In this document: piece by piece, positions 1,904 to 41,590 of the stretch
How the letters are laid out: each line of letters begins with the position of its first letter
Numbering within the stretch: the stretch's first letter is position 1
NCBI GenBank assembly: GCA_029262275.1
Contig: JAJCZS010000007.1
Location: 382,031 to 446,030, forward strand
Length of the DNA: 64,000 nucleotides
Direction of reading: 5' to 3'
Source of the DNA: Deltaproteobacteria bacterium
Lineage (GTDB): Bacteria > Desulfobacterota_D > UBA1144 > Nemesobacterales > UBA2774
The notes under the pieces: generated by a model
What the model saw: the letters and a program-made list of their open reading frames with translations, nothing else
The model's database searches: none
Told to the model about the DNA's origin: nothing
Translations under genes and position numbers: made by a program

Positions 1904-3235
1904 ATGAGTCAGCAAAACACACTAACTTACGCAAGAGTCAATGACGACGTTATAAGAATGCTGGATAAGCCCACATTTAAGTGGTGGGCACTATTTCTAC
2001 CTACTCTTTTGTTTGTCGGAATTGGCGCATTTTGCTTCATATATCAGGTTCAATATGGATTGGGTGTTGCAGGCTATAGGCATCCAGTATTTTGGGGTGT
2101 TTACATTACAGATTTTGTATTCTGGGTTGGTATTGCGCATTCAGGAACTTTGATTTCAGCAGTTTTATTTCTTTTCCGTGCGAATTTCCGAATGTCGATT
2201 TACCGAATAGCTGAGGGTATGACGGTATTTGCAGTTTTAACTGCAGGATTATTTCCTATTATTCACTTAGGTCGACCATGGAACTTTTACTGGTTATTTC
2301 CATACCCAAACCAAAGAGAGCTATGGGTTAACTTTAAATCACCGCTTCTTTGGGACGTTTTCGCTGTAAGCACTTACCTAACTGTAAGCTCTGTTTTCTT
2401 CTTTATTGGAATGATTCCAGACATCGCGGCTATTAGAGACAGGGTTACAGAAACACCACGTAAAATTATCTATTCCATACTCTCACTGGGCTGGAAAGGG
2501 TCCAACTGGGAATGGTTACACTACACAAGGGCATATTTGTTCTTTGCAGCTTTTGCTACTCCACTAGTTCTCTCGGTTCACAGTGTTGTATCCTGGGACT
2601 TTGCAATGTCAAACCTTCCTGGTTGGCATACGACTATTTTTGCTCCTTATTTTGTTGCAGGTGCTATTTTCTCAGGTCTAGGGATGGTTATCACGCTAAC
2701 TGTGCCGATTAGAAAGATATTCCACTTAGAAGACTATATCACCATGGACAATTATGATGGTATGGCAAAACTCATATTGGTAACTTCAGGAATTGTAGGC
2801 TATGCCTATGGTGTAGAATTCTTTATGGCATGGTACAGCGGTGTGCCTGCTGAATGGTATCAGTTCTATTACAGGGCAACCGGAGAGTATGCACTATTTT
2901 ACTGGATAATGATTGTATGTAACGTAATAATTCCGCTACCTCTTTGGTTTAAGAGTATGCGTAGTAACATAGTTGTTCTATTTATAATTTCTATCTTCAT
3001 TAATATCGGTATGTGGTTTGAGAGATTTAACATTATCGTGATTTCTCTATCGCGTGGGTTTGATCCTGCGGCTTGGGGAATCTATCAACCTACATGGGTT
3101 GAAATTGGTATTACGGTAGGAAGTTTCGCATGGTTCTTCATGTTCTTCCTAATTTTCTTAAAAACTCTTCCTTCTGTCTCTATTGCTGAGATGAAGGAGA
3201 TCTTGCCTGTACCTAAGAAGGAGGCAAAAACATAA
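1904..3235 (+). CDS. actC: ACIII membrane subunit ActC (NrfD/PsrC-like polytopic quinol-binding protein).
   Basis: 443-aa protein that is highly hydrophobic with multiple predicted TM helices. Its position directly after actB and its NrfD-family pattern support the call. Confidence 0.7.
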   Translation: MSQQNTLTYARVNDDVIRMLDKPTFKWWALFLPTLLFVGIGAFCFIYQVQYGLGVAGYRHPVFWGVYITDFVFWVGIAHSGTLISAVLFLFRANFRMSIYRIAEGMTVFAVLTAGLFPIIHLGRPWNFYWLFPYPNQRELWVNFKSPLLWDVFAVSTYLTVSSVFFFIGMIPDIAAIRDRVTETPRKIIYSILSLGWKGSNWEWLHYTRAYLFFAAFATPLVLSVHSVVSWDFAMSNLPGWHTTIFAPYFVAGAIFSGLGMVITLTVPIRKIFHLEDYITMDNYDGMAKLILVTSGIVGYAYGVEFFMAWYSGVPAEWYQFYYRATGEYALFYWIMIVCNVIIPLPLWFKSMRSNIVVLFIISIFINIGMWFERFNIIVISLSRGFDPAAWGIYQPTWVEIGITVGSFAWFFMFFLIFLKTLPSVSIAEMKEILPVPKKEAKT

Positions 3236-22507: not shown

Positions 22508-23299
22508 ATGAAATTAGGTCTTGCACTAGGCGGAGGAGGAGCCAAGGGGTTTGCGCATCTGGGAATACTGCAGGTTCTCTCTGAGGCGGGAATTGAATTT
22601 GATGTTGTAGCTGGAACCAGCATAGGAGCCTTAATTGGGGCTGTCTATGTATCTGGCAATCTGGATAGTCTTGAAAAATTTGCTACAAAAATAGGCATGA
22701 CCGATTTACCTTTTATGCTTAGGCCAACCTGGCCTAGGGGAGGGCTTCTTAGTGCTACTTATATTGAAGAACTCGTAGATAAGTTTGTAAATGTTCAGAA
22801 CATAGAGGACCTTCAAAAGCCTTTCGCTGCAGTTTGTGTAGATTTGAATAAAGCTCAGGTTGTGACTTTTTCTAAAGGCGATCTAAAGAGGGCGATAAGA
22901 GCGAGCACTTCAATTCCGGGTGTTTTTAAACCTGTATTTTATGAGGATAAAATACTAGTTGATGGGGGCATTCTGGAATCAGTACCACTAGATGCTGTTC
23001 GTTCCCTAGGGGCCGATTTTATAGTAGCTGTAGATCTCTTAAGCGACCTCTCGGGTAATCAGAACTTTAATGAAGGCAAACCTTCTATTGTTGAGATAGT
23101 GCAGAGAAGCTCTATAGTGGCACAGAGGAAAATTACAGAGTACAAATTTAAGGAAAATCCCCCTGATGTTGTTATAAGCCCACCGTTGTCTGAGGTTGGA
23201 GTTATGGATTTTCACAATGGCAAGCCTATCTTTGAATTAGGTAGAGAAGCTGCTCAAAAAGTTTTGCCAGAGCTGCTTGAAAAGCTTAAGAAGAACTAG
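22508..23299 (+). CDS. Patatin-like phospholipase.
   Basis: GGGxxG oxyanion motif (LGGGGAKG), GTSIG nucleophile elbow, and a DGG catalytic Asp motif. Confidence 0.8.
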   Translation: MKLGLALGGGGAKGFAHLGILQVLSEAGIEFDVVAGTSIGALIGAVYVSGNLDSLEKFATKIGMTDLPFMLRPTWPRGGLLSATYIEELVDKFVNVQNIEDLQKPFAAVCVDLNKAQVVTFSKGDLKRAIRASTSIPGVFKPVFYEDKILVDGGILESVPLDAVRSLGADFIVAVDLLSDLSGNQNFNEGKPSIVEIVQRSSIVAQRKITEYKFKENPPDVVISPPLSEVGVMDFHNGKPIFELGREAAQKVLPELLEKLKKN

Positions 23300-24716
23300 C
23301 TTTTAGAGTTGCTCCCTTTCTCCATTCCCAGATCAAAAATAGCCAAACAGGAACAAATTCAATCCATATAATTATATTGGTGAATATTTCTAGTTGACCT
23401 CTGGGCTCAAAATAATATCTCAGGTAATAAAGCGGTAAAAGAGCAGTTAATAAGAGCAGAGAAAACCTAGGCTTGATAGCCAACAGTGGTATAAGCCATG
23501 TGTAGTACCATGGGAATTGTGTGGGGCTAACTAAAAATGCAAAAGCGATTATATACAAACTCTTGCTAAATAGATCTGCATTCCTAAATGCTTTTCCAAA
23601 AGCTACATATAGAATCCAGATTGCAATAAGAGCAATTACGATGAACCTTGCAACCGTGTATTTATGAAATGTCTCATAGCCAAATAAGTTTAAGCCGAGC
23701 TCAGAGATGTAGACCAGTATCCTAAAAGCTGAGTCATTGTTCTGCCAGCTTTGTCCGTATGCTATAAAGCCTGAGCTTGCATCTAGGCCTGAGAGGTATA
23801 TAGGCAAAAATAAAGCTCCTATGGAAATAGCTGCTATAACAAGTACAAATAAGAGTTGCTTAGGTTTAGATATTATGGGTCTAATAATTATAGGCAATAA
23901 AAAGGCCGGCCAGAGTTTTATACCAAGCCCAATAATCAGCGTGAGTGAGGAGCGGATATATCTGTTTTGTGTAGCCGCAATTAAGGCACTAAGGACAAAA
24001 GGAAAGACTAGTACATCAAGGTGTCCTGAATTGAATATCTCTTTTAAAAGAAGGGGATTCCACCAATAGATTATAAGATAGGAGGTCGGGAGCTTTAATA
24101 TTCCTAAGGCACTAAAAATTAATGACAGAGTAGCAAGGTCCATAATTATCAGAATTATTTTCCACGTTGTCAGATTCCACGAGTCGAGTGCATAGGAGAC
24201 TGCAAAAAATGCCTGAGCCACAGGGGGATATATTGTTCTAATCTGGGGATGGTTAATACGGTGAATTATATCTCCCGATTCTTCTGCAAGCGCTACAAGC
24301 TCCTCGGGAACACCTTCTTTGTTTAATACTTCCTCAGGGGAATACTCGTAGGGATTTATAAGGTTTGCAGTTACAGCCCCGTCCCAAAGATATCTAAAAT
24401 AATCATCCTCAAGAATTGGGGCGGTGAAGAGCATCAATAATCTCAAAACAATCCCTATTCCAATCACCCATAGGATCTGTTTTTTGACTAAATCTACTTT
24501 CGGTAATTTGAAAATTGTGAATAAAAAGATGAGCCCTGCAAAAATAAGAATTCCCACGAGTGCGAGAACTGGTCTATCAATTAGAGAAATAGAATCTGCA
24601 AATTCCGGTGAAATGTATGTTATTAGACTAAAACAAATTAAAAGAAGTATTCCGGATATGATAAGTATAGAGGTTGATACTTTTCCGGAATTACCTGTTG
24701 TGGAATTATTCATCAT
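23286..24716 (-). CDS. Large polytopic membrane protein, possibly a GT-C fold glycosyl/mannosyltransferase-like (DUF2029-like) protein.
   Basis: 476-aa protein with more than 10 TM helices. Its 3' end overlaps the patatin gene end by 14 nt in convergent orientation. Confidence 0.4.
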   Translation of the reverse strand: MMNNSTTGNSGKVSTSILIISGILLLICFSLITYISPEFADSISLIDRPVLALVGILIFAGLIFLFTIFKLPKVDLVKKQILWVIGIGIVLRLLMLFTAPILEDDYFRYLWDGAVTANLINPYEYSPEEVLNKEGVPEELVALAEESGDIIHRINHPQIRTIYPPVAQAFFAVSYALDSWNLTTWKIILIIMDLATLSLIFSALGILKLPTSYLIIYWWNPLLLKEIFNSGHLDVLVFPFVLSALIAATQNRYIRSSLTLIIGLGIKLWPAFLLPIIIRPIISKPKQLLFVLVIAAISIGALFLPIYLSGLDASSGFIAYGQSWQNNDSAFRILVYISELGLNLFGYETFHKYTVARFIVIALIAIWILYVAFGKAFRNADLFSKSLYIIAFAFLVSPTQFPWYYTWLIPLLAIKPRFSLLLLTALLPLYYLRYYFEPRGQLEIFTNIIIWIEFVPVWLFLIWEWRKGATLKASSS

Positions 24717-25694: not shown

Positions 25695-26050
25695 AGTATG
25701 TCCTTTTAGAATTAATTGCGATTTATACTACATATCAGCTACAGTTTTTCAAGGCTACCGATCTTCAATAGCCTGGTACATTGACTTTTAGATAGCAAAA
25801 TAACCGATAAAGATTCAACCCCCATTTCTCACTACGCAAATATAGTTAGGGTTATACCGCTTCCCATTAGGAAGGAATTTCAGATACATAGAGAATGATA
25901 AAAACAACAATTCACATAATATGGCTGCTTGACTATAGAAGTCTCAGATTAAATAAATTCAGCATTAAAGAAATCTTATGTACTTTTCTTTTAATGCGTA
26001 GTAAAGTAATCGGAAATTAAAAGTGTCAATTTTAAAGGAGGATGTAAGAT

Positions 26051-27397
26051 ATGGAAGCCATATTTTCAGGAGCTAAGAGGGTAGTTCTTTATACAAGCTC
26101 AAAGCTGATTTTAACATTGAGTGTAGCAATTTTTCTATGTTCATCAGTTTTTGTGTTTAATCAGGACGCATATTCACAGGATTCAGTATGTTTAAATAGA
26201 ATAATTGAACAGATAACAGCTGATGTACTTGAAGAGAGTTTTGATCCTTCAATAAACTCAGACGGCACCTGGATTGCATTTGCATCTACCTCAGACATAA
26301 ACGGCGGGAACCCTGAGGCGAATGATGAGATATATCTCTTTAATACCGCAACCGGCGTCTTTACACAGATAACAGCTGAGACGGCTGGAGATAGTGCTCT
26401 TCCCTCGATAAACTCAGACGGCACCCGAATTGCATTTGAATCTACCTCAAACATAAACGGCGGGAACCCTGAAGGGAATGCAGAGATATACCTCTTTGAT
26501 ACTACAACCGGTGTCTTTACACAGATAACAGCTGAGACGGTTGGAGATAGTCAAGAACCCTCAATAAACTCAGACGGCACCCGAATTACATTTCGATCTA
26601 GAGCAGACATAAACGGCGGGAATCCTGGGATAGAAGATGAGATATACCTCTTTGATACTACAGCCGGTGTCATTACACAGATAACAGATGATCCAGTTGA
26701 ACCAAGTTCTAGCCCCTCAATAAACTCAGACGGCACCCGAATTGCATTTCAAACTAGAGCAGACATAAACGGTGGGAACCCTGATGGGAATAGAGAGATA
26801 TACCTCTTTGATACTACAAACGGCATCTTTACACAGATAACAGATGACCCCTCTGGCGATAGTAGCTTCGGTCCTTCAATAAACTCAGACGGCACCCGAA
26901 TTGCATTTATAACTAACGCAAACATAAACGGCGGGAACCCTGATGGGAGTTTTGAGATATACCTCTTTGATACTACGAGCGGCGTCTTTACACAGATAAC
27001 AGATGAGACGTCTGGAAGTAGTTCTGATCCCTCAATAAACTCAGACGGCAGCCTAATTGCATTTGAATCTGACTCAGATATAAACGGCGGGAACCCTGAT
27101 GGGAATGAAGAGATATACCTCTTTGATACTACAAACGGCACCACTACACAGATAACAGATGAGACGGCTGTATTTAGTTCTGATCCCTCAATAAACTCAG
27201 ACGGCACCCGAATTGCATTTGTGTCTAACGGAGGCATGAACGGCGGAAACCCTGATGAGAATGCGGAGGTTTTTCTGTCAACATGCCTGCAACCTAAAAA
27301 CGTCCCAACCCTATCTGAATGGGGATTAATAGCTATGGCAGGACTTCTTGGAATCGTAGGTTTTATGGTTGTTAGAAGAAGACAAGTTGCAGCTTAA
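26051..27397 (+). CDS. Secreted or surface beta-propeller-like repeat protein (PD40/TolB-type blades) with an IPTL-CTERM-like C-terminal sorting signal.
   Basis: N-terminal signal/anchor. Seven tandem ~52-aa repeats (PSINSDGTRIAF...INGGNP.GN.EIYLFDTT.G.FTQITD). The C-terminus NVPTLSEWGLIAMAGLLGIVGFMVVRRRQ combines a motif, a TM helix and a basic cluster. Confidence 0.7.
   Translation: MEAIFSGAKRVVLYTSSKLILTLSVAIFLCSSVFVFNQDAYSQDSVCLNRIIEQITADVLEESFDPSINSDGTWIAFASTSDINGGNPEANDEIYLFNTATGVFTQITAETAGDSALPSINSDGTRIAFESTSNINGGNPEGNAEIYLFDTTTGVFTQITAETVGDSQEPSINSDGTRITFRSRADINGGNPGIEDEIYLFDTTAGVITQITDDPVEPSSSPSINSDGTRIAFQTRADINGGNPDGNREIYLFDTTNGIFTQITDDPSGDSSFGPSINSDGTRIAFITNANINGGNPDGSFEIYLFDTTSGVFTQITDETSGSSSDPSINSDGSLIAFESDSDINGGNPDGNEEIYLFDTTNGTTTQITDETAVFSSDPSINSDGTRIAFVSNGGMNGGNPDENAEVFLSTCLQPKNVPTLSEWGLIAMAGLLGIVGFMVVRRRQVAA
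26246..27262 (+). repeat. Seven near-identical tandem coding repeats of 156 nt (one of 159 nt) inside the propeller gene.
   Basis: Repeat starts, read directly from the sequence, are 26246, 26402, 26558, 26714, 26873, 27029 and 27185. The core is nearly identical at nucleotide level, and differences are concentrated at a few codon positions. Confidence 0.85.
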
Positions 27398-27430
27398 AAC
27401 AAACTAAGACAATTCAATTTAAAACTTAAA

Positions 27431-27468
27431 GGGGGTTTGGCACAAGTAGTGCGAGACCCCCTTTTTTT
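27431..27468 (+). terminator. Rho-independent terminator downstream of the repeat-protein gene.
   Basis: GGGGGTTTGGCAC-aagta-GTGCGAGACCCCC hairpin followed by a T7 run. Confidence 0.7.
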
Positions 27469-27578
27469 ATTTAGAATTGATATTAACATTCAAACTTAAC
27501 CTGCTTTTGACAAAGGGGAGCAGTGCAGTGTTCTCATTAATAGTTATAATCTATCCATAAATCAAGGGAGCATAATAA

Positions 27579-37219: not shown

Positions 37220-38833
37220 ATGGCAAATCATACAGTTGCCACAAATGTATATGTTCCGTTTTTAGAGCAAAAGGGCTTTTTGTCCTGGTTTCTAACAACT
37301 GATCATAAACGAATCGGAATTCTATACTTGATTTCTATCTCTTTATTCTTTTTAATAGCCGGCGTTTTAGCGCTGCTTATGAGATTTGAGCTCATGACTC
37401 CAATGTCCGATTTTGTAAGTCCACATACCTACAATGTGCTATTCACATTGCACGGCTCTTTGATGGTCTTTTTCTTCATCGTTCCTGGGCTTGCTGCAAG
37501 TTTTGGTAATTTCCTTATACCCCTTATGATTGGTGCTCCAGATGTTGCCTTCCCAAAGCTTAATTTAGCTAGTTATTGGATATATATAGTGGGAGCTATC
37601 ATTACTCTAATTGCGCTACTATCACCAGCTGATACTGGCTGGACATTCTATACCCCTTACAGTGCGACTACGGATACAGATGTTGTAATGATTACCTTTG
37701 GAGTTTTTGTTCTGGGTTTCTCCTCGATTCTTACTGGAATGAACTTTATTGTTACAATTCATAAAATGAGAGCCCCCGGAATGACGTGGCATCGTTTGCC
37801 GCTATTTATATGGGCTTCCTATGCAACAGCAGTTCTTCAGCTTCTTGCAACTCCAGTTGTTGGTATAACACTTCTTATGCTTATTGCTGAGAGAAGTCTT
37901 GGAGTAGGTTTCTTTGATCCTGCTAAAGGTGGAGATCCTGTACTTTTTCAGAACTTCTTCTGGTTTTACTCACACCCTGCTGTGTACATCATGATCATTC
38001 CAGCTATGGGAGTTATATCAGAAATAATTCCGGTATTTGCTCGTAAACCTATATTTGGCTATAAGGCTATTGCCTATTCAAGTCTTGGTATTGCTTTTAT
38101 AAGCTTTTTGGTTTGGGCTCACCATATGTTTACTAGTGGTATCTCTGAGGTTGCAGCCACGATCTTCTCATTCTTAACTTTCTTAGTTGCTATTCCAACA
38201 GCGATCAAGGTTTTTAACTGGACCGCTACACTATATAAAGGTTCAATTGAGCTCCATTCAGCTATGTTATACGCGCTTGGATTCATCTTCCTATTTACAA
38301 TAGGGGGACTAACAGGAGTTTTCTTAGGAGCGCTTGCTGTAGATATTCATCTTCACGACACCTATTTTGTTGTGGCTCATATGCACTATGTAATGATTGG
38401 TGGAACAGTTATGGGGTTCTTTGGAGCACTTCATTTCTGGTACCCAAAATGGTTTGGCAAGATGTTTAACGAATCAGTTGCCAAACTTGCATGGTTCCTA
38501 GTTTTCGTTGGTTTCAATATTACGTTCTTCCCTCAATTTTTCTTAGGAATCCAGGGTATGCCTAGAAGATATGCTACGTATCCAGAGGAGTTTGAATCCC
38601 TTATGGCTCTATCTACATACGGGTCATGGATATTGGGTCTAGGTGTTCTAATAATGACAGTGAATCTTATAAAAGGACTTTTCAGTGATGAAAAAGCGCC
38701 TCAGAATCCATACGGATCTCTTTCTCTTGAATGGCAGGTGCCTTCACCACCGCCAACCCTAAATTTTGATAAAATTCCTATAGTAACAGATTGGACTTAT
38801 GGTTACGGTAAAAAGAAAGAGGTGGATGCTTAA
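37220..38833 (+). CDS. coxA: Cytochrome c oxidase subunit I.
   Basis: 537-aa protein with 12 TM helices and conserved His ligands ([19 protein letters not shown]). Confidence 0.9.
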
Positions 38834-38834
38834 A

Positions 38835-39446
38835 ATGGAACAAGCTAATATGGATCACGCTGAAGGCCACGACCTTCATTTGACACCAGAGCAAGAATAC
38901 GGCATTTCTAAGCTTGGCATGTGGCTATTTCTGGGAACAGAAATTATGCTTTTCGGAGGTCTCTTTGCTGCTTATGCAATATTTAGAGCTAAGTACCCTG
39001 AAATGTTTTTAGAGTCCCATCAAGAACTTAACCGTGAAATGGGAGCCGTAAACACCTGCATATTAATCTTCAGCAGTTTAACAATGGCCATTGGGGTTAC
39101 CGCGATACAAAGAGGTAAACAGATGCTTGCCGGTATTATGATTCTGGTTACCATAATATGCGGTCTGGGATTTGGAGTTGTTAAATATTTTGAGTACGGT
39201 GCAAAATTTGCACACCACATTTATCCTGACACAAATATATTCTTCTCACTTTACTTCATGATGACCGGTCTTCATATGTTACATGTCTTTATAGGTCTTG
39301 CTGTCCTTGGAGTAATAATGGTATTAACCTTTAAGGGTAAATTTAATGAAAAATATAGCACTCCCGTAGAGATGGGTGGGTTGTACTGGCATTTAGTGGA
39401 TTTAGTATGGATTTATCTTTTCCCATTACTTTATTTAGTAGGATAG
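38835..39446 (+). CDS. coxC: Cytochrome c oxidase subunit III.
   Basis: Polytopic membrane protein located after coxA. The ATG at 38835 lies 1 nt after the coxA stop; the ORF-track start at 38799 would overlap coxA. Confidence 0.8.
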   Translation: MEQANMDHAEGHDLHLTPEQEYGISKLGMWLFLGTEIMLFGGLFAAYAIFRAKYPEMFLESHQELNREMGAVNTCILIFSSLTMAIGVTAIQRGKQMLAGIMILVTIICGLGFGVVKYFEYGAKFAHHIYPDTNIFFSLYFMMTGLHMLHVFIGLAVLGVIMVLTFKGKFNEKYSTPVEMGGLYWHLVDLVWIYLFPLLYLVG

Positions 39447-39462
39447 ATGGAGGCAAAAATAA

Positions 39463-39771
39463 ATGAGCGAACACACACATAGTCAAGAAAAGCATATAAC
39501 AAGTTATAAAACATATTTCATAGTTTGGGTAGCCCTTATGGTGCTCACATTTGTTACGGTCTATATTTCGTATCTAGATTTTGGCCAATTAAATATTGTA
39601 ATTGCGATGGTTGTAGCATCAATCAAAGCAGGTGCAGTTGCGCTGTTCTTTATGCATCTTAAATTCGAGGATTCAATTACTTGGCTATTTGCTCTATTTC
39701 CAATAGCACTTCTCTTTTTGTTAATAGGAATGACCATACTCGATACATTCACAAGAATTTTTCCTATATAG
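39463..39771 (+). CDS. coxD: Cytochrome c oxidase subunit IV (prokaryotic caa3 small subunit).
   Basis: 102-aa protein with three TM helices, located directly after coxC. Confidence 0.6.
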   Translation: MSEHTHSQEKHITSYKTYFIVWVALMVLTFVTVYISYLDFGQLNIVIAMVVASIKAGAVALFFMHLKFEDSITWLFALFPIALLFLLIGMTILDTFTRIFPI

Positions 39772-39785
39772 ATGGTTAATTATTT

Positions 39786-40640
39786 ATGATAGGCAAAATT
39801 TCCCTTTTTCTACTCTTTATTCTCTTTATATGGGGAAACCTAGTTGCAGGACTCCACGCTGGGCTTGGATGTCCAGACTGGCCACTGTGTTATGGTGAAG
39901 TGGTTCCTCCTTATAGATGGGATACTTATATGGAGTTTATGCACCGAGTGATTGGCGCTATAACTTCAATATTCTTAGCAATATTCTGTTATCAAAGATT
40001 TCGTTCTTACAATGGATTCGCTAAGTTTATACCCATTCTTATAATTCTGCTTCTTATTTTTCAGATCATTCTTGGTGGAATTGTAGTAATAATGGAGCTC
40101 CCTGTTGATCTTACAACTTTCCATTTTGCAAATGCCATGGTGATTTTTGCCCTGGTCCTTTATATGCTCTACTTTGATGGTATCTATAGAAAACCTCAAT
40201 TTAGTCTTTCAGGATACGGAGGGATCTTTTTCTTTCTGAGTATTGTCATTTTTATTCAACTGGTGTTGGGAGCATATGTTAGGCACTCAAGCTCTGGGCT
40301 TGCATGTCCAGATTTTCCTACCTGTCTTGGATATTTGATACCACCAGAGCTCTCGGGGTTAATACTCAATCACTTTGCACATAGAACGCTAGCCTATTTA
40401 ATAACAATAATTGTAGCAGTAATGCTGATTGCTTCGTATACATCTAAAGCACTTAAAAAGTACCAATTTGAGCTTTTATTACTAATTGGGTTTATAGTAC
40501 TTCAGATTCTCTTAGGTGCGGGTGTTGTGCTGACAAAACTACAGTTTGCAGTGACAGCCTTACACTTAACTGTTGCGCTTCTAATATTCTATACTGCACT
40601 ATATGCTTGGTTTCGGGGTATGCAGGAAAGTAGTGTATAA
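39786..40640 (+). CDS. ctaA: Heme A synthase CtaA.
   Basis: Polytopic protein with paired Cys loops (GCPDWPLC, ACPDFPTC) and conserved His residues. Confidence 0.8.
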   Translation: MIGKISLFLLFILFIWGNLVAGLHAGLGCPDWPLCYGEVVPPYRWDTYMEFMHRVIGAITSIFLAIFCYQRFRSYNGFAKFIPILIILLLIFQIILGGIVVIMELPVDLTTFHFANAMVIFALVLYMLYFDGIYRKPQFSLSGYGGIFFFLSIVIFIQLVLGAYVRHSSSGLACPDFPTCLGYLIPPELSGLILNHFAHRTLAYLITIIVAVMLIASYTSKALKKYQFELLLLIGFIVLQILLGAGVVLTKLQFAVTALHLTVALLIFYTALYAWFRGMQESSV

Positions 40641-40681
40641 TTTTTTCAAAATCTGATTTTTTTATAGAGACTTCATAAAAG

Positions 40682-41590
40682 ATGGAACAGGTAGAGAAAG
40701 CACCCTCAAATATCGTAGTATCAACTATCCTATTATCAAAGCCGGGGATTATTGTAAGTGTTGCTTTTACAGGTTTTGCGGGGATGGTTTTAGCATCAAG
40801 AGCACTTCCAGACTTAACTACTATAGTTATAACTATGTTAGCACTACTACTTAGTGCGGCCGGGTCGGCCATACTCAATAACGTATTGGATAAACAAATA
40901 GATCTCCTTATGAACAGGCTAAGCAAAAGGGCTCAGGCGCTTGAATCAGTGGGAGAGAAAACAGCAATATTTATTGCAAGTCTATTTATCATAATCTCAC
41001 TATTTCTCTCTTTCTATTATTTAAATTATATAACAGCACTCTTAATTATTGCAGCTATATTGAGCTATACGCTGCTCTATACTTTGTATCTAAAGAGAAG
41101 CTCACCATATGGAACAATCTTAGGTGGCCTTCCAGGCGCGCTTCCTGTTCTTATTGGATATGCAGCGATACAGCCTCATATAGGACTTGATGGATATATA
41201 CTTTTTGCTTTTATGATGCTTTGGCAGCCGCCTCATTTCTGGGCTCTGGCACAGAAATACAAGTTAGACTATAAAAAAGCAGGAGTTCCTGTTATGCCCG
41301 TTGCAATGGGAGCTAAGTTTACGAATATAATGATATTAATTTATTCAATCTCTCTCTTGCCACTGTCGCTTTCTTTCTGGTTTCTAGGGTATACATCTGC
41401 CTATTTTGCAATATTGGCACTTATATTTGGGGGATATTTCGAATACACCATAATAAGAAGTACTATGACCAATTCCGGTTATGGAAAAGCCTTTGCTATA
41501 TCCATTATTTATATGTTAGCTATAATGGCAGCCTTGATACTGGATCTGTCATTTGGATCGACGGCTAGTGCAGTGACTACTCTTTATTAA
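40682..41590 (+). CDS. ctaB: Protoheme IX farnesyltransferase (heme O synthase).
   Basis: UbiA-family prenyltransferase located immediately after ctaA; 302 aa. Confidence 0.8.
   Translation: MEQVEKAPSNIVVSTILLSKPGIIVSVAFTGFAGMVLASRALPDLTTIVITMLALLLSAAGSAILNNVLDKQIDLLMNRLSKRAQALESVGEKTAIFIASLFIIISLFLSFYYLNYITALLIIAAILSYTLLYTLYLKRSSPYGTILGGLPGALPVLIGYAAIQPHIGLDGYILFAFMMLWQPPHFWALAQKYKLDYKKAGVPVMPVAMGAKFTNIMILIYSISLLPLSLSFWFLGYTSAYFAILALIFGGYFEYTIIRSTMTNSGYGKAFAISIIYMLAIMAALILDLSFGSTASAVTTLY

What the first reader, a model, noticed from the sequence alone, without database searches (positions are those of the whole stretch)
26051..27397. Surface protein built from seven near-identical 156-nt tandem repeats (PD40-like blades) ending in an IPTL-CTERM-like sorting signal
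The repeats are almost identical at the DNA level in their core (PSINSDGTRIAF / INGGNP / EIYLFDTT / FTQIT). They differ at a few clustered codon positions: the three residues after AF, the residues around GN.E, and the inter-blade linker. This looks like a conserved scaffold with localised hypervariable positions, which fits concerted evolution with diversification of a ligand-facing surface. The C-terminus (VPTLSEWG, then a TM helix, then RRRQ) matches the IPTL-CTERM class of putative sorting signals. The processing enzyme for that class is unknown. The large near-perfect repeats are also a likely assembly-collapse or recombination hotspot.
Basis: partly seen in the sequence, partly recalled or inferred. 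Interest (0 to 1): 0.7.

Follow-up and report, generated by a model that had tools for sequence, protein, structure and literature searches.

The report
Seven-blade propeller protein with IPTL-CTERM tail
This gene encodes an exported seven-bladed beta-propeller protein with an IPTL-CTERM sorting tail, an ordinary member of a large, already named family; its blades share a near-identical scaffold and differ mainly at four positions on one face.

Summary
ORF 26051-27397 (+) encodes 448 aa: a signal peptide, six full 52-aa repeats plus one truncated repeat (156-nt period), and a C-terminal VPTLSEWG / TM helix / RRRQ tail. PD40 (84 bits) and IPTL-CTERM (PF18203 38 bits, TIGR04174 40 bits) both pass their curated cut-offs.

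AlphaFold gives a confident seven-blade propeller (pLDDT 87). It is closed by an N-terminal "velcro" strand, and the invariant C47 and C412 probably form a disulfide clasp.

"Near-identical" is overstated: repeats 1-6 are 77-86% identical in DNA. Scaffold codons are nearly frozen, though.

Variation is concentrated at columns 13, 15, 27 and 49. All four lie on the B-C/D-A loop ("top") face, and the same four columns are hot in ten other repetitive homologues. Repeats show concerted evolution or re-amplification against every homologue except one 86% orthologue.

The family is large (more than 1688 hits, about 85% with seven blades), lives mainly in Ca. Dadabacteria/Thermodesulfobacteriota MAGs, and NCBI already names it. 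Assembly collapse is unlikely here, because the longest exact internal repeat is 36 nt.

No sorting enzyme was found in the window or in about 1 Mb of related flanks. Exosortase H is the nominal partner. Verdict: a new member of a known kind, of modest interest.

The parts
26036..26041 (+). Shine-Dalgarno sequence AGGAGG, 9 nt upstream of the ATG at 26051
   Evidence: Read directly from the sequence. It supports the annotated start, and orthologue P0002 starts at the equivalent position.
26051..27397 (+). Complete gene: 448-aa exported PD40-type seven-blade beta-propeller with an IPTL-CTERM sorting domain
   Evidence: ORF; Pfam and NCBIfam matches; identical protein P0001 in NCBI on a 467,986-bp contig.
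26051..26176 (+). N-terminal signal peptide region (residues 1-42): K9/R10, a hydrophobic stretch, then A-Y-S before Q43
   Evidence: Sequence inspection. AlphaFold models a single low-confidence helix at residues 2-36. Homologues have AEA|QQ at the same place. The cleavage site is inferred, not predicted by a dedicated tool.
26186..26212 (+). N-terminal 'velcro' strand (residues 46-54, VCLNRIIEQ). It supplies the missing fourth strand of blade 7. Invariant Cys47 is at 26189-26191.
   Evidence: DSSP strand E46-54 in the model. The sequence RIIEQITAD mimics the repeat's xFTQITDE strand. C47 is invariant in 32 of 32 aligned homologues.
26246..27184 (+). Six full tandem repeats of 156 nt (159 nt for repeat 4): 26246-26401, 26402-26557, 26558-26713, 26714-26872, 26873-27028, 27029-27184
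   Evidence: In the model each repeat contributes four strands.
27185..27286 (+). Truncated seventh repeat (residues 379-412, strands A-C only), ending in invariant Cys412 (27284-27286)
   Evidence: the HMM match ends at column 31; strand E406-413 lies next to E46-54; the register i+j of about 459-460 places C47 opposite C412.
27302..27385 (+). IPTL-CTERM sorting domain: motif VPTLSEWG (27302-27325), TM helix LIAMAGLLGIVGFMVV (27326-27373), basic cluster RRRQ (27374-27385)
   Evidence: TIGR04174 40.4 bits and PF18203 38.3 bits, both above their cut-offs. P419, T420, L421, S422, W424 and G425 are at least 90% conserved in homologues.
27428..27471 (+). Intrinsic terminator: a 15-bp interrupted GC-rich hairpin followed by a T7 run
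   Evidence: RNA fold gives -26.1 kcal/mol with z = -6.4 against shuffles. The sequence was read. The consensus scan missed it.

Best explanation
The gene is a stand-alone transcription unit for an exported cell-envelope protein. The chain of events below marks which steps are shown and which are inferred.

1. An N-terminal Sec signal peptide takes the protein across the inner membrane (inferred from the sequence).
2. Residues 46-413 fold into a closed seven-blade PD40-type beta-propeller (predicted with high confidence). Each 52-aa repeat gives strands A-D. Blade 7 lacks strand D, which the N-terminal strand 46-54 supplies ('velcro' closure). A Cys47-Cys412 disulfide probably locks this closure (inferred from invariance and strand register).
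3. The C-terminal VPTLSEWG / TM helix / RRRQ module is an IPTL-CTERM sorting signal (shown by HMMs).
4. By analogy with PEP-CTERM/exosortase and PGF-CTERM/archaeosortase, the tail holds the protein in the inner membrane until an exosortase-family enzyme cleaves it and passes the propeller to the outer envelope (inferred). Exosortase H is the nominal enzyme.
5. The propeller itself has no catalytic partner domain. It most likely acts as a binding module. Its binding surface would be the 'top' face, formed by the long B-C loops (D-I-N-G-G-N-P-x-G-N) and the D-A linkers. Four positions per blade there (columns 13, 15, 27, 49, about 28 residues per protein) are free to vary or are selected to vary.
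6. The array evolves as other highly repetitive propellers do, by blade amplification or gene conversion. This keeps the scaffold, including synonymous sites, nearly uniform while the top-face positions stay diverse.
For: Architecture:
- HMM matches pass curated cut-offs.
- The AlphaFold model has pLDDT 86.9 and pTM 0.80, with 28 strands in seven blades plus the N-terminal strand.
- C47 and C412 are invariant in 32 homologues.

Fold relatives:
- By sequence and Foldseek: TolB and S9-peptidase propellers.

Family:
- More than 1688 homologues exist. Of the 120 listed, 102 have seven blades, most about 430-455 aa with the same N- and C-termini.
- NCBI names the 86% orthologue 'IPTL-CTERM sorting domain-containing protein'.
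- The same propeller occurs with other sorting tails, such as MYXO-CTERM and DUF11. This fits a displayed cargo module.

Surface fate: the only experimentally studied IPTL-CTERM protein found in the literature search is the S-layer protein of Methylomirabilis lanthanidiphila (PMC8671808).

Evolution of the array:
- Positional and non-positional repeat identity are equal against every homologue except P0002 (for example 0.74 vs 0.75 for P0004). Within-protein identity there is higher, at 0.81-0.90.
- All repeats of this gene and of P0002 read SINSDG; most close relatives read SINADG.
- Scaffold codons are frozen despite not being preferred codons.
- Hot columns 13, 15, 27 and 49 recur in ten other repetitive homologues.
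- pN at the hot columns is 0.46-0.70, against pS of 0.13-0.23 elsewhere, in four genes.
- Between orthologues, dN/dS is 1.13 in the top-face variable columns and 0.25 in the rest.

Transcription unit: own Shine-Dalgarno sequence and terminator.
Against: - No ligand, localisation or processing data exist for this protein or for any close homologue.
- No exosortase, rhombosortase or CPBP-type protease was found among the multi-TM ORFs of the window. None was found among about 30 multi-TM ORFs sampled from about 1 Mb flanking IPTL-CTERM genes in related genomes. None lies within 20 kb of an IPTL-CTERM gene on a Diaphorobacter plasmid.
- The XrtH link rests on a sub-threshold match to NF033207 (31.6 bits against 45) and on remembered NCBI nomenclature.
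- A dN/dS of about 1.1 between orthologues fits relaxed constraint as well as positive selection. The hot columns were also chosen after seeing the data.
- I could not read model coordinates. The face assignment and the disulfide rest on strand topology, not on measured distances.
Confidence: 0.72

Rival explanations
1. Same protein and same sorting, but the variable columns are simply unconstrained loop positions. The propeller would have a fixed structural role in the envelope, for example as an S-layer or matrix component. The uniform scaffold would reflect only recent blade amplification, not selection for diversity.
For: - Orthologue dN/dS at the variable columns is about 1.1, which is neutral.
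- The same columns have the highest entropy across all 612 repeats of the family and accept almost any residue type.
- The one characterised IPTL-CTERM protein is an S-layer protein.
- Highly repetitive propellers arise continuously by amplification without any need for diversifying selection (PMC9218822).
Against: - pN at the four hot columns is 3-4 times the synonymous divergence of the rest of the repeat in four genes. Neutrality alone does not give that unless the scaffold is being homogenised.
- The four columns sit together on the face that beta-propellers normally use for binding.
Confidence: 0.35
2. The C-terminal helix is a permanent inner-membrane anchor that is never cleaved. The propeller would then work in the periplasm, like TolB, as a scaffold for envelope proteins.
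For: - The best sequence matches among solved structures are TolB propellers.
- No processing enzyme was found.
- Cleavage of IPTL-CTERM has never been shown biochemically in the literature I could search.
Against: - The TolB equivalog model scores 87.8 bits against a cut-off of 343.
- The protein has seven blades rather than six, and it lacks the TolB N-terminal domain.
- The tail has a sequence-specific conserved motif (P419, T420, L421, S422, W424 and G425 at least 90% conserved). A plain anchor would not need one.
- Homologous propellers carry other sorting tails.
- A Methylomirabilis IPTL-CTERM protein reaches the cell surface.
Confidence: 0.12
3. The propeller is an enzyme, for example a lyase or alkyl-transferase like its structural neighbours CylK and oligogalacturonate lyase, displayed on the surface.
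Against: - The CylK active site lies at the interface with an N-terminal Ca2+-binding domain and needs Arg105 from that domain (PMC8916777). This protein has no second domain.
- Identity to all these enzymes is 14-20%.
- Seven near-equivalent blades with hypervariable top-face residues argue against a single fixed active site.
Confidence: 0.06
4. The repeat number or the gene itself is an assembly artefact of a metagenome-assembled genome.
For: - The source is evidently a MAG.
- Some close relatives have 5 or 6 blades with intact ends (P0003, P0017, P0024, P0037).
Against: - The longest exact internal repeat is 36 nt.
- The reading frame is intact through all repeats.
- Seven blades with a truncated seventh is the form in 102 of the 120 listed homologues.
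- The 86% orthologue has the same seven blades in two independent assemblies.
- The model closes as a seven-blade ring.
Confidence: 0.03

Closest known systems
IPTL-CTERM sorting domain-containing proteins (TIGR04174 / PF18203), including the Methylomirabilis lanthanidiphila S-layer protein mela_00855
   Same: C-terminal tripartite signal (IPTLxxWG-type motif, TM helix, Arg cluster) plus an N-terminal signal peptide. The HMMs pass their cut-offs. Related genomes carry many such genes, often in islands.
   Different: The cargo domain differs: a PD40 propeller here, and an unrelated roughly 280-aa S-layer domain in mela_00855. In this window the gene is a singleton between trxB and a GcvT-like gene followed by mreBCD, not in an island.
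TolB C-terminal beta-propeller (PD40 repeats, PF07676)
   Same: Closest solved relatives by sequence (E 1e-9 to 1e-7). They share the blade motif P-S-x-S-P-D-G-x-x-I-A-F ... Y ... D ... G ... Q-L-T.
   Different: This protein has seven blades rather than six and no TolB N-terminal domain. It has a 7-residue insertion (INGGNP...) in every B-C loop. The TolB equivalog model fails (87.8 bits against 343). Its blades are highly similar to one another, and it carries a sorting tail.
CylK C-terminal beta-propeller (PDB 7RON)
   Different: Only 14% identity, and not detectable by sequence. CylK has an N-terminal Ca2+-binding beta-roll that forms its active site, and a Ca2+ site at each blade junction. 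Ca2+ binding here is only a possibility, suggested by the conserved D-x-N-G-G-N-P-D-G-N loop and by the NF047539 hit of 39.5 bits against a cut-off of 35.
[quoted passage not shown]
   Same: Median blade identity is 71%, above their 60% criterion. The DPPIV/S9 lineage, which matches this protein above the Pfam gathering cut-off (PF00930, 26.9 bits), is among those listed as having such members. Relatives show a continuum of blade similarity from 0.40 to 0.90.
   Different: I did not check whether this particular IPTL-CTERM / Dadabacteria family is in their data set.
WD40 arrays of Podospora anserina HNWD/NLR genes (het-d, het-e)
   Same: Concerted evolution of a propeller repeat array, with four variable residues per repeat grouped on the interaction face (PMC1805685; here). 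Repeat-number variants occur among close relatives.
   Different: A different propeller superfamily (PD40, not WD40). This is a bacterial exported protein, not a cytoplasmic NLR. Positive selection is not formally demonstrated here, and exchange between paralogous loci was not tested.

Membership tests
IPTL-CTERM sorting-domain proteins (TIGR04174 / PF18203) | HMM score above the curated cut-off | tested here: met
   TIGR04174 scores 40.4 bits against 20.5. PF18203 scores 38.3 bits against 20.8. Both cover residues 418-444.
IPTL-CTERM sorting-domain proteins (TIGR04174 / PF18203) | Tripartite layout at the extreme C-terminus: signature motif, TM helix, basic cluster | tested here: met
   VPTLSEWG (418-425), LIAMAGLLGIVGFMVV (426-441), RRRQ (442-445), then 3 residues to the stop. 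Helix 423-447 in the model.
IPTL-CTERM sorting-domain proteins (TIGR04174 / PF18203) | N-terminal signal peptide | tested here: met
   K9/R10, a hydrophobic stretch at residues 18-36, and AYS|Q, with AEA|QQ in homologues. Judged by inspection only; no dedicated predictor was available.
IPTL-CTERM sorting-domain proteins (TIGR04174 / PF18203) | Several such proteins per genome | tested here: inconclusive
   Only one motif in the 64-kb window. Related Dadabacteria/Thermodesulfobacteriota MAGs have at least 8-10 loci each, and islands of up to 9 genes. The rest of the source genome was not available.
IPTL-CTERM sorting-domain proteins (TIGR04174 / PF18203) | Cognate exosortase (XrtH) encoded in the same genome | not testable with these tools
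   Not in the window and not in the sampled flanks of related loci. The whole genome could not be fetched. The link to XrtH comes from the NF033207 'midcut-by-XrtH' match (31.6 bits, below its cut-off of 45) and from my own knowledge of NCBI naming.
IPTL-CTERM sorting-domain proteins (TIGR04174 / PF18203) | Cleavage of the tail and delivery to the cell surface | not testable with these tools
   This needs experiment. The only precedent found is the surface location of the Methylomirabilis S-layer protein.
PD40 / TolB-like beta-propeller repeat (PF07676) | Repeat HMM above the gathering score, in several copies | tested here: met
   84.3 bits against 20.9, with 7 stretches.
PD40 / TolB-like beta-propeller repeat (PF07676) | Four-stranded blades forming a closed propeller | tested here: met
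TolB (Tol-Pal system, TIGR02800) | Equivalog HMM cut-off, N-terminal TolB domain and a six-blade propeller | tested here: not met
   87.8 bits against 343.15. There is no N-terminal domain, and the propeller has seven blades. This is not TolB.
[quoted passage not shown] | Median pairwise blade identity above 60% | tested here: met
   Median 71% for blades 1-6. Mean 0.71, rank 15 of 102 homologues. The criterion was read.
HNWD-type diversifying repeat arrays (analogy only) | Concerted evolution of the repeats | tested here: met
   Positional and non-positional repeat identity are equal against every homologue but P0002. Within-protein identity exceeds between-protein identity in P0004-P0007. 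The lineage-wide SINSDG versus SINADG difference points the same way.
HNWD-type diversifying repeat arrays (analogy only) | Positive diversifying selection at a few positions on the interaction face | tested here: inconclusive
   Hot columns 13, 15, 27 and 49 recur. pN(hot) is 3-4 times pS(rest). Orthologue dN/dS is only 1.13, and no site-model test was possible.
HNWD-type diversifying repeat arrays (analogy only) | NLR architecture (NACHT/NB-ARC + WD40) | tested here: not met
   No such domain is present. The blades are PD40, not WD40. This is an analogy of evolutionary mode only.
CylK/BrtB-type alkylating enzymes | N-terminal Ca2+-binding beta-roll domain packed on the propeller top face to form the active site | tested here: not met
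   Only a signal peptide precedes the propeller. There is no RTX or other domain hit. The feature is described in PMC8916777.

The most novel reading that the evidence does not exclude
This family is a bacterial surface-receptor repertoire that diversifies the way fungal HNWD NLRs do. Gene conversion or blade re-amplification keeps a PD40 scaffold uniform, down to synonymous sites. Selection keeps four top-face residues per blade (about 28 per propeller) different. This would give uncultivated Dadabacteria a rapidly retunable binding surface for prey, phage, polysaccharide or partner recognition, delivered by the still uncharacterised IPTL-CTERM/exosortase H pathway.
Probability: 0.25. Interest if true: 0.6.

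Novelty: new member of a known kind. Interest (0 to 1): 0.33.

Why it matters
The gene itself is something NCBI's annotation pipeline already labels, so the existence of the protein is not news. Two things give it some value.

1. IPTL-CTERM sorting has essentially no experimental literature: one paper in 8 million mentions it. A small, well-folding, single-domain cargo such as this propeller would be a convenient substrate for testing whether exosortase H really cleaves IPTLxxWG tails, and what it attaches them to.

2. The family shows frozen scaffold codons together with four recurrent hypervariable positions on the propeller's binding face, seen independently in many members. If the positive selection is real, it would extend to bacterial surface proteins a diversification mode described in fungal innate-immunity receptors. 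It would also point to the ligand-contact residues of an abundant protein family in an uncultivated phylum.

Tried and rejected
**Sorting enzyme.**
- I screened all multi-TM ORFs of the window against NCBIfam.
- I then screened about 30 multi-TM ORFs taken from 77 related loci, about 1 Mb in total, against NCBIfam and Pfam. Only transporters, respiratory and cell-wall proteins turned up.
- I looked for 'midcut' proteins with an internal IPTL motif, which might sit next to XrtH. None were found among 150 motif-bearing ORFs.
- I looked beside an annotated IPTL-CTERM gene on a Diaphorobacter plasmid. Nothing relevant was there.
- Literature searches for XrtH, exosortase H or IPTLxxWG found nothing relevant. 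The 2012 archaeosortase/exosortase paper is not held.

**Source genome and synteny.**
- An exact look-up of the protein's contig failed.
- None of the fetched loci shares the window's neighbours.

**Other checks.**
- Rfam found no RNA families in the window.
- The consensus promoter/terminator scan found nothing useful. A direct fold did find the terminator.
- The AFDB Foldseek library was unavailable.
- Model coordinates could not be read in the sandbox, so distances and faces were inferred from topology.

**Ideas rejected.**
- A diversity-generating retroelement: the variable codons show no adenine-specific pattern, and this reading did not rest on any search for a reverse transcriptase gene.
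- TolB identity: the equivalog model fails.
- A lipoprotein signal: the residues before Cys30 are I-F-L, which is not a lipobox, and the Cys is absent in homologues.
Full report
**1. The observation**

The window holds an ORF at 26051-27397 on the + strand, encoding 448 aa. Tandem Repeats Finder reports a 156-nt period with 6.6 copies and 82% matches over 26233-27263. Anchoring on PSINSDG gives seven repeats, starting at residues 66, 118, 170, 222, 275, 327 and 379. Repeat 4 carries one extra codon. Repeat 7 breaks off after about 33 residues and runs into the C-terminal tail.

Repeats 1-6 are 77-86% identical in DNA and 62-81% identical in protein. 'Near-identical' is therefore an overstatement for the whole unit. 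It is accurate for the core. At the 19 columns where the amino acid never changes, codon choice is almost fixed. ATA, AAC, TCA, GAC, ATT, TTT and CCT each occur in 14 of 14 repeat copies of this gene plus its orthologue. Several of these are minority codons in the window (GAC 28%, TCA 25%, AAC 40%). No other copy of the unit or of the tail exists in the 64 kb.

The gene has a canonical AGGAGG 9 nt before the ATG. It also has a strong intrinsic terminator at 27428-27471 (-26.1 kcal/mol, z -6.4). It is therefore its own transcription unit.

**2. What the protein is**

- Domain matches. Pfam PD40 scores 84.3 bits (cut-off 20.9) in seven stretches. IPTL-CTERM scores 38.3 bits (cut-off 20.8) in Pfam and 40.4 bits (cut-off 20.5) as TIGR04174. 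The TolB equivalog models fail by a wide margin (87.8 against 343).
- The tail. It reads VPTLSEWG (418-425), a 16-residue hydrophobic helix, then RRRQ.
- The N-terminus. It has K/R, a hydrophobic stretch and AYS|Q. Homologues have AEA|QQ at the same place.
- The model. An AlphaFold model built on 32 homologues is confident (pLDDT 86.9, pTM 0.80). It has 28 strands in seven four-stranded blades.
- Blade layout. Within each repeat the strands are columns 50-3 (A), 9-14 (B), 28-33 (C) and 38-41 (D).
- Ring closure. Blade 7 has only A-C. The N-terminal strand 46-54 (RIIEQIT, mimicking xFTQIT) supplies D, which is a 'velcro' closure.
- Probable disulfide. C47 and C412 are the only cysteines invariant across the 32 aligned sequences. 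They lie at cross-strand positions of the two neighbouring antiparallel strands (register i+j of about 459-460). A disulfide clasp is likely but inferred, because I could not read coordinates.

**3. Relatives**

The protein search returned more than 1688 homologues. They include an identical NCBI protein on a 467,986-bp contig and an 86% orthologue that NCBI names 'IPTL-CTERM sorting domain-containing protein' from a Thermodesulfobacteriota MAG. Of the 120 best hits, 102 have seven blades with the seventh truncated at the same column. Many share the whole layout: about 445 aa, the same N-terminal Cys strand and the same tail. Others carry the propeller with different C-terminal modules, such as MYXO-CTERM or DUF11.

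A scan of species-representative genomes placed the family mainly in Ca. Dadabacteria/Thermodesulfobacteriota MAGs, which have many IPTL-CTERM loci each. Delftia is an outlier host. In the orthologue's genome the gene sits in a row of nine IPTL-CTERM genes. In the window it is a singleton between trxB and a GcvT-like gene followed by mreBCD. None of the 77 fetched loci shares that neighbourhood.

**4. How the array evolves**

Against every homologue except the 86% orthologue, repeat i of the window protein is no closer to repeat i than to repeat j of the other protein. For P0004 the figures are 0.74 and 0.75. Within-protein identity in those proteins is higher, at 0.81-0.90. All repeats of the window gene and its orthologue read SINSDG, whereas most close relatives (P0003-P0009) read SINADG in all repeats. 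This is the signature of concerted evolution or of independent re-amplification.

Since the split from the orthologue, positional identity has been kept (0.86 against 0.70). With a median blade identity of 71%, the protein meets the over-60% criterion for 'highly repetitive, recently amplified' propellers. That class includes the DPPIV/S9 lineage (PMC9218822). It ranks 15th of 102 relatives for blade similarity, which ranges from about 0.40 to 0.90.

**5. The variable positions**

Within the window protein the variable columns are 13-17, 24-27, 36, 38-39 and 44-52. They correlate with family-wide column entropy (rho 0.58) and with the differences from the orthologue (rho 0.60).

In ten other repetitive homologues, within-protein variation collapses onto four columns: 13, 15, 27 and 49. 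Their mean entropies are 1.7, 1.4, 1.4 and 1.3, and every other column is at or below 0.7. These four columns flank the B-C loop and end the D-A loop. By the alternation of loops in a beta-meander they lie on one face, the conventional 'top' or binding face. Variable columns make up 13 of 21 in those loops against 1 of 9 in the opposite loops (p=0.017).

At the four hot columns pN is 0.46-0.70, while pS in the rest of the repeat is 0.13-0.23, in four genes. Between orthologues dN/dS is 1.13 in the top-face variable columns and 0.25 elsewhere. This fits diversity being maintained on a homogenised scaffold. It does not prove positive selection, because neutral drift at unconstrained loop positions remains possible and the columns were chosen after seeing the data.

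The pattern parallels the Podospora HNWD WD40 arrays, which show concerted evolution and four selected residues per repeat on the interaction surface (PMC1805685).

**6. Sorting**

The tail is a textbook IPTL-CTERM. NCBIfam's 'midcut-by-XrtH protein' model aligns to it (31.6 bits, below its cut-off of 45) and to the tails of neighbouring IPTL-CTERM proteins in L001. From my own knowledge, NCBI names XrtH 'exosortase H, IPTLxxWG-CTERM-specific', so the class is not strictly orphan.

I could not find any exosortase-like gene:
- not in the window;
- not among about 30 multi-TM ORFs from the flanks of related IPTL-CTERM genes;
- not beside a plasmid-borne IPTL-CTERM gene.

This is expected for many-to-one sorting systems, but it leaves the pairing untested here. 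The only experimental data point found is that the S-layer protein of Methylomirabilis lanthanidiphila carries this domain and reaches the surface (PMC8671808).

**7. Assembly**

The longest exact internal repeat is 36 nt and the frame is intact. The seven-blade form is canonical. The orthologue shows the same structure in two independent assemblies. Collapse is therefore unlikely for this gene.

Relatives with more similar blades include complete 5- and 6-blade forms: P0003, P0017, P0024 and P0037. P0003 has a 55-nt exact internal repeat. Those could be collapsed assemblies or real unequal-recombination products.

**8. Unexplained**

Synonymous divergence from the orthologue is much lower in the array (0.14) than in the signal-peptide region (0.48) or the tail (1.1). 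The window's tail DNA is at least as close to the tails of unrelated IPTL-CTERM genes (84-86%) as to its orthologue's tail (81%). Tails may be exchanged among paralogues, or the array may be held uniform by conversion. I could not separate the two.

**9. Verdict**

The protein is an ordinary member of a large family that is already labelled automatically. The most interesting aspect is the recurrent set of four hypervariable top-face positions on a codon-frozen scaffold. The mechanism is known in kind from other propeller families, and selection is not yet demonstrated. Interest is modest.

Noticed in passing
window 27428-27471: A strong Rho-independent terminator (15-bp interrupted hairpin plus T7, -26.1 kcal/mol, z -6.4). 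The consensus terminator scan missed it.
   Followed up: yes
window 23286-24716 (-): A 476-aa protein with about 10 TM helices, two genes upstream of the target. It has no Pfam hit and only a faint match to a GT-C mannosyltransferase (TIGR03459, 22 bits). It could be an envelope glycosyltransferase. A PMT_2-type GT-C gene also lies near the orthologue's IPTL-CTERM island (L001 12935-14431), but the two are not detectably similar at E 1e-10.
   Followed up: partly
L001 3299-9346 and L002 197-5708: The 86% orthologue sits in a row of nine consecutive IPTL-CTERM genes. Most are small (112-302 aa). One is a 53-aa ORF that is little more than the sorting signal itself.
   Followed up: partly
window 26051-26245 and 27287-27397 compared with L001 4549-5898: Synonymous divergence from the orthologue is 3-8 times higher in the signal-peptide and IPTL-tail regions than in the repeat array. 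The tail DNA is as similar to tails of unrelated IPTL-CTERM genes as to its own orthologue's tail. This hints at tail exchange among paralogues.
   Followed up: partly
P0003 (L006 9619-10809), P0017, P0024, P0037: Close relatives with intact signal peptide and IPTL tail have only 5 or 6 blades. P0003 and P0017 look like orthologues that differ by one blade. These are either real copy-number variants or collapsed MAG assemblies.
   Followed up: partly
L079 242-1287: An IS3-type transposase pair (HTH_Tnp_1, rve) lies immediately upstream of the highly repetitive homologue P0005.
   Followed up: no
window 37220-41590 and 1904-3235: The window carries an aa3-type cytochrome oxidase subunit III gene, heme A synthase and heme O synthase genes. 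It also carries a DsrP-like membrane protein. This suggests aerobic respiration genes in a lineage filed under Thermodesulfobacteriota/Dadabacteria.
   Followed up: no
window 26051-27397 (protein residues 291-334 and two other stretches): The NCBIfam 'XAC2610-related protein' domain model NF047539 matches above its cut-off (39.5 bits against 35) in three stretches of the repeats. The meaning is unclear. It may reflect a shared Ca2+-binding-type loop.
   Followed up: partly
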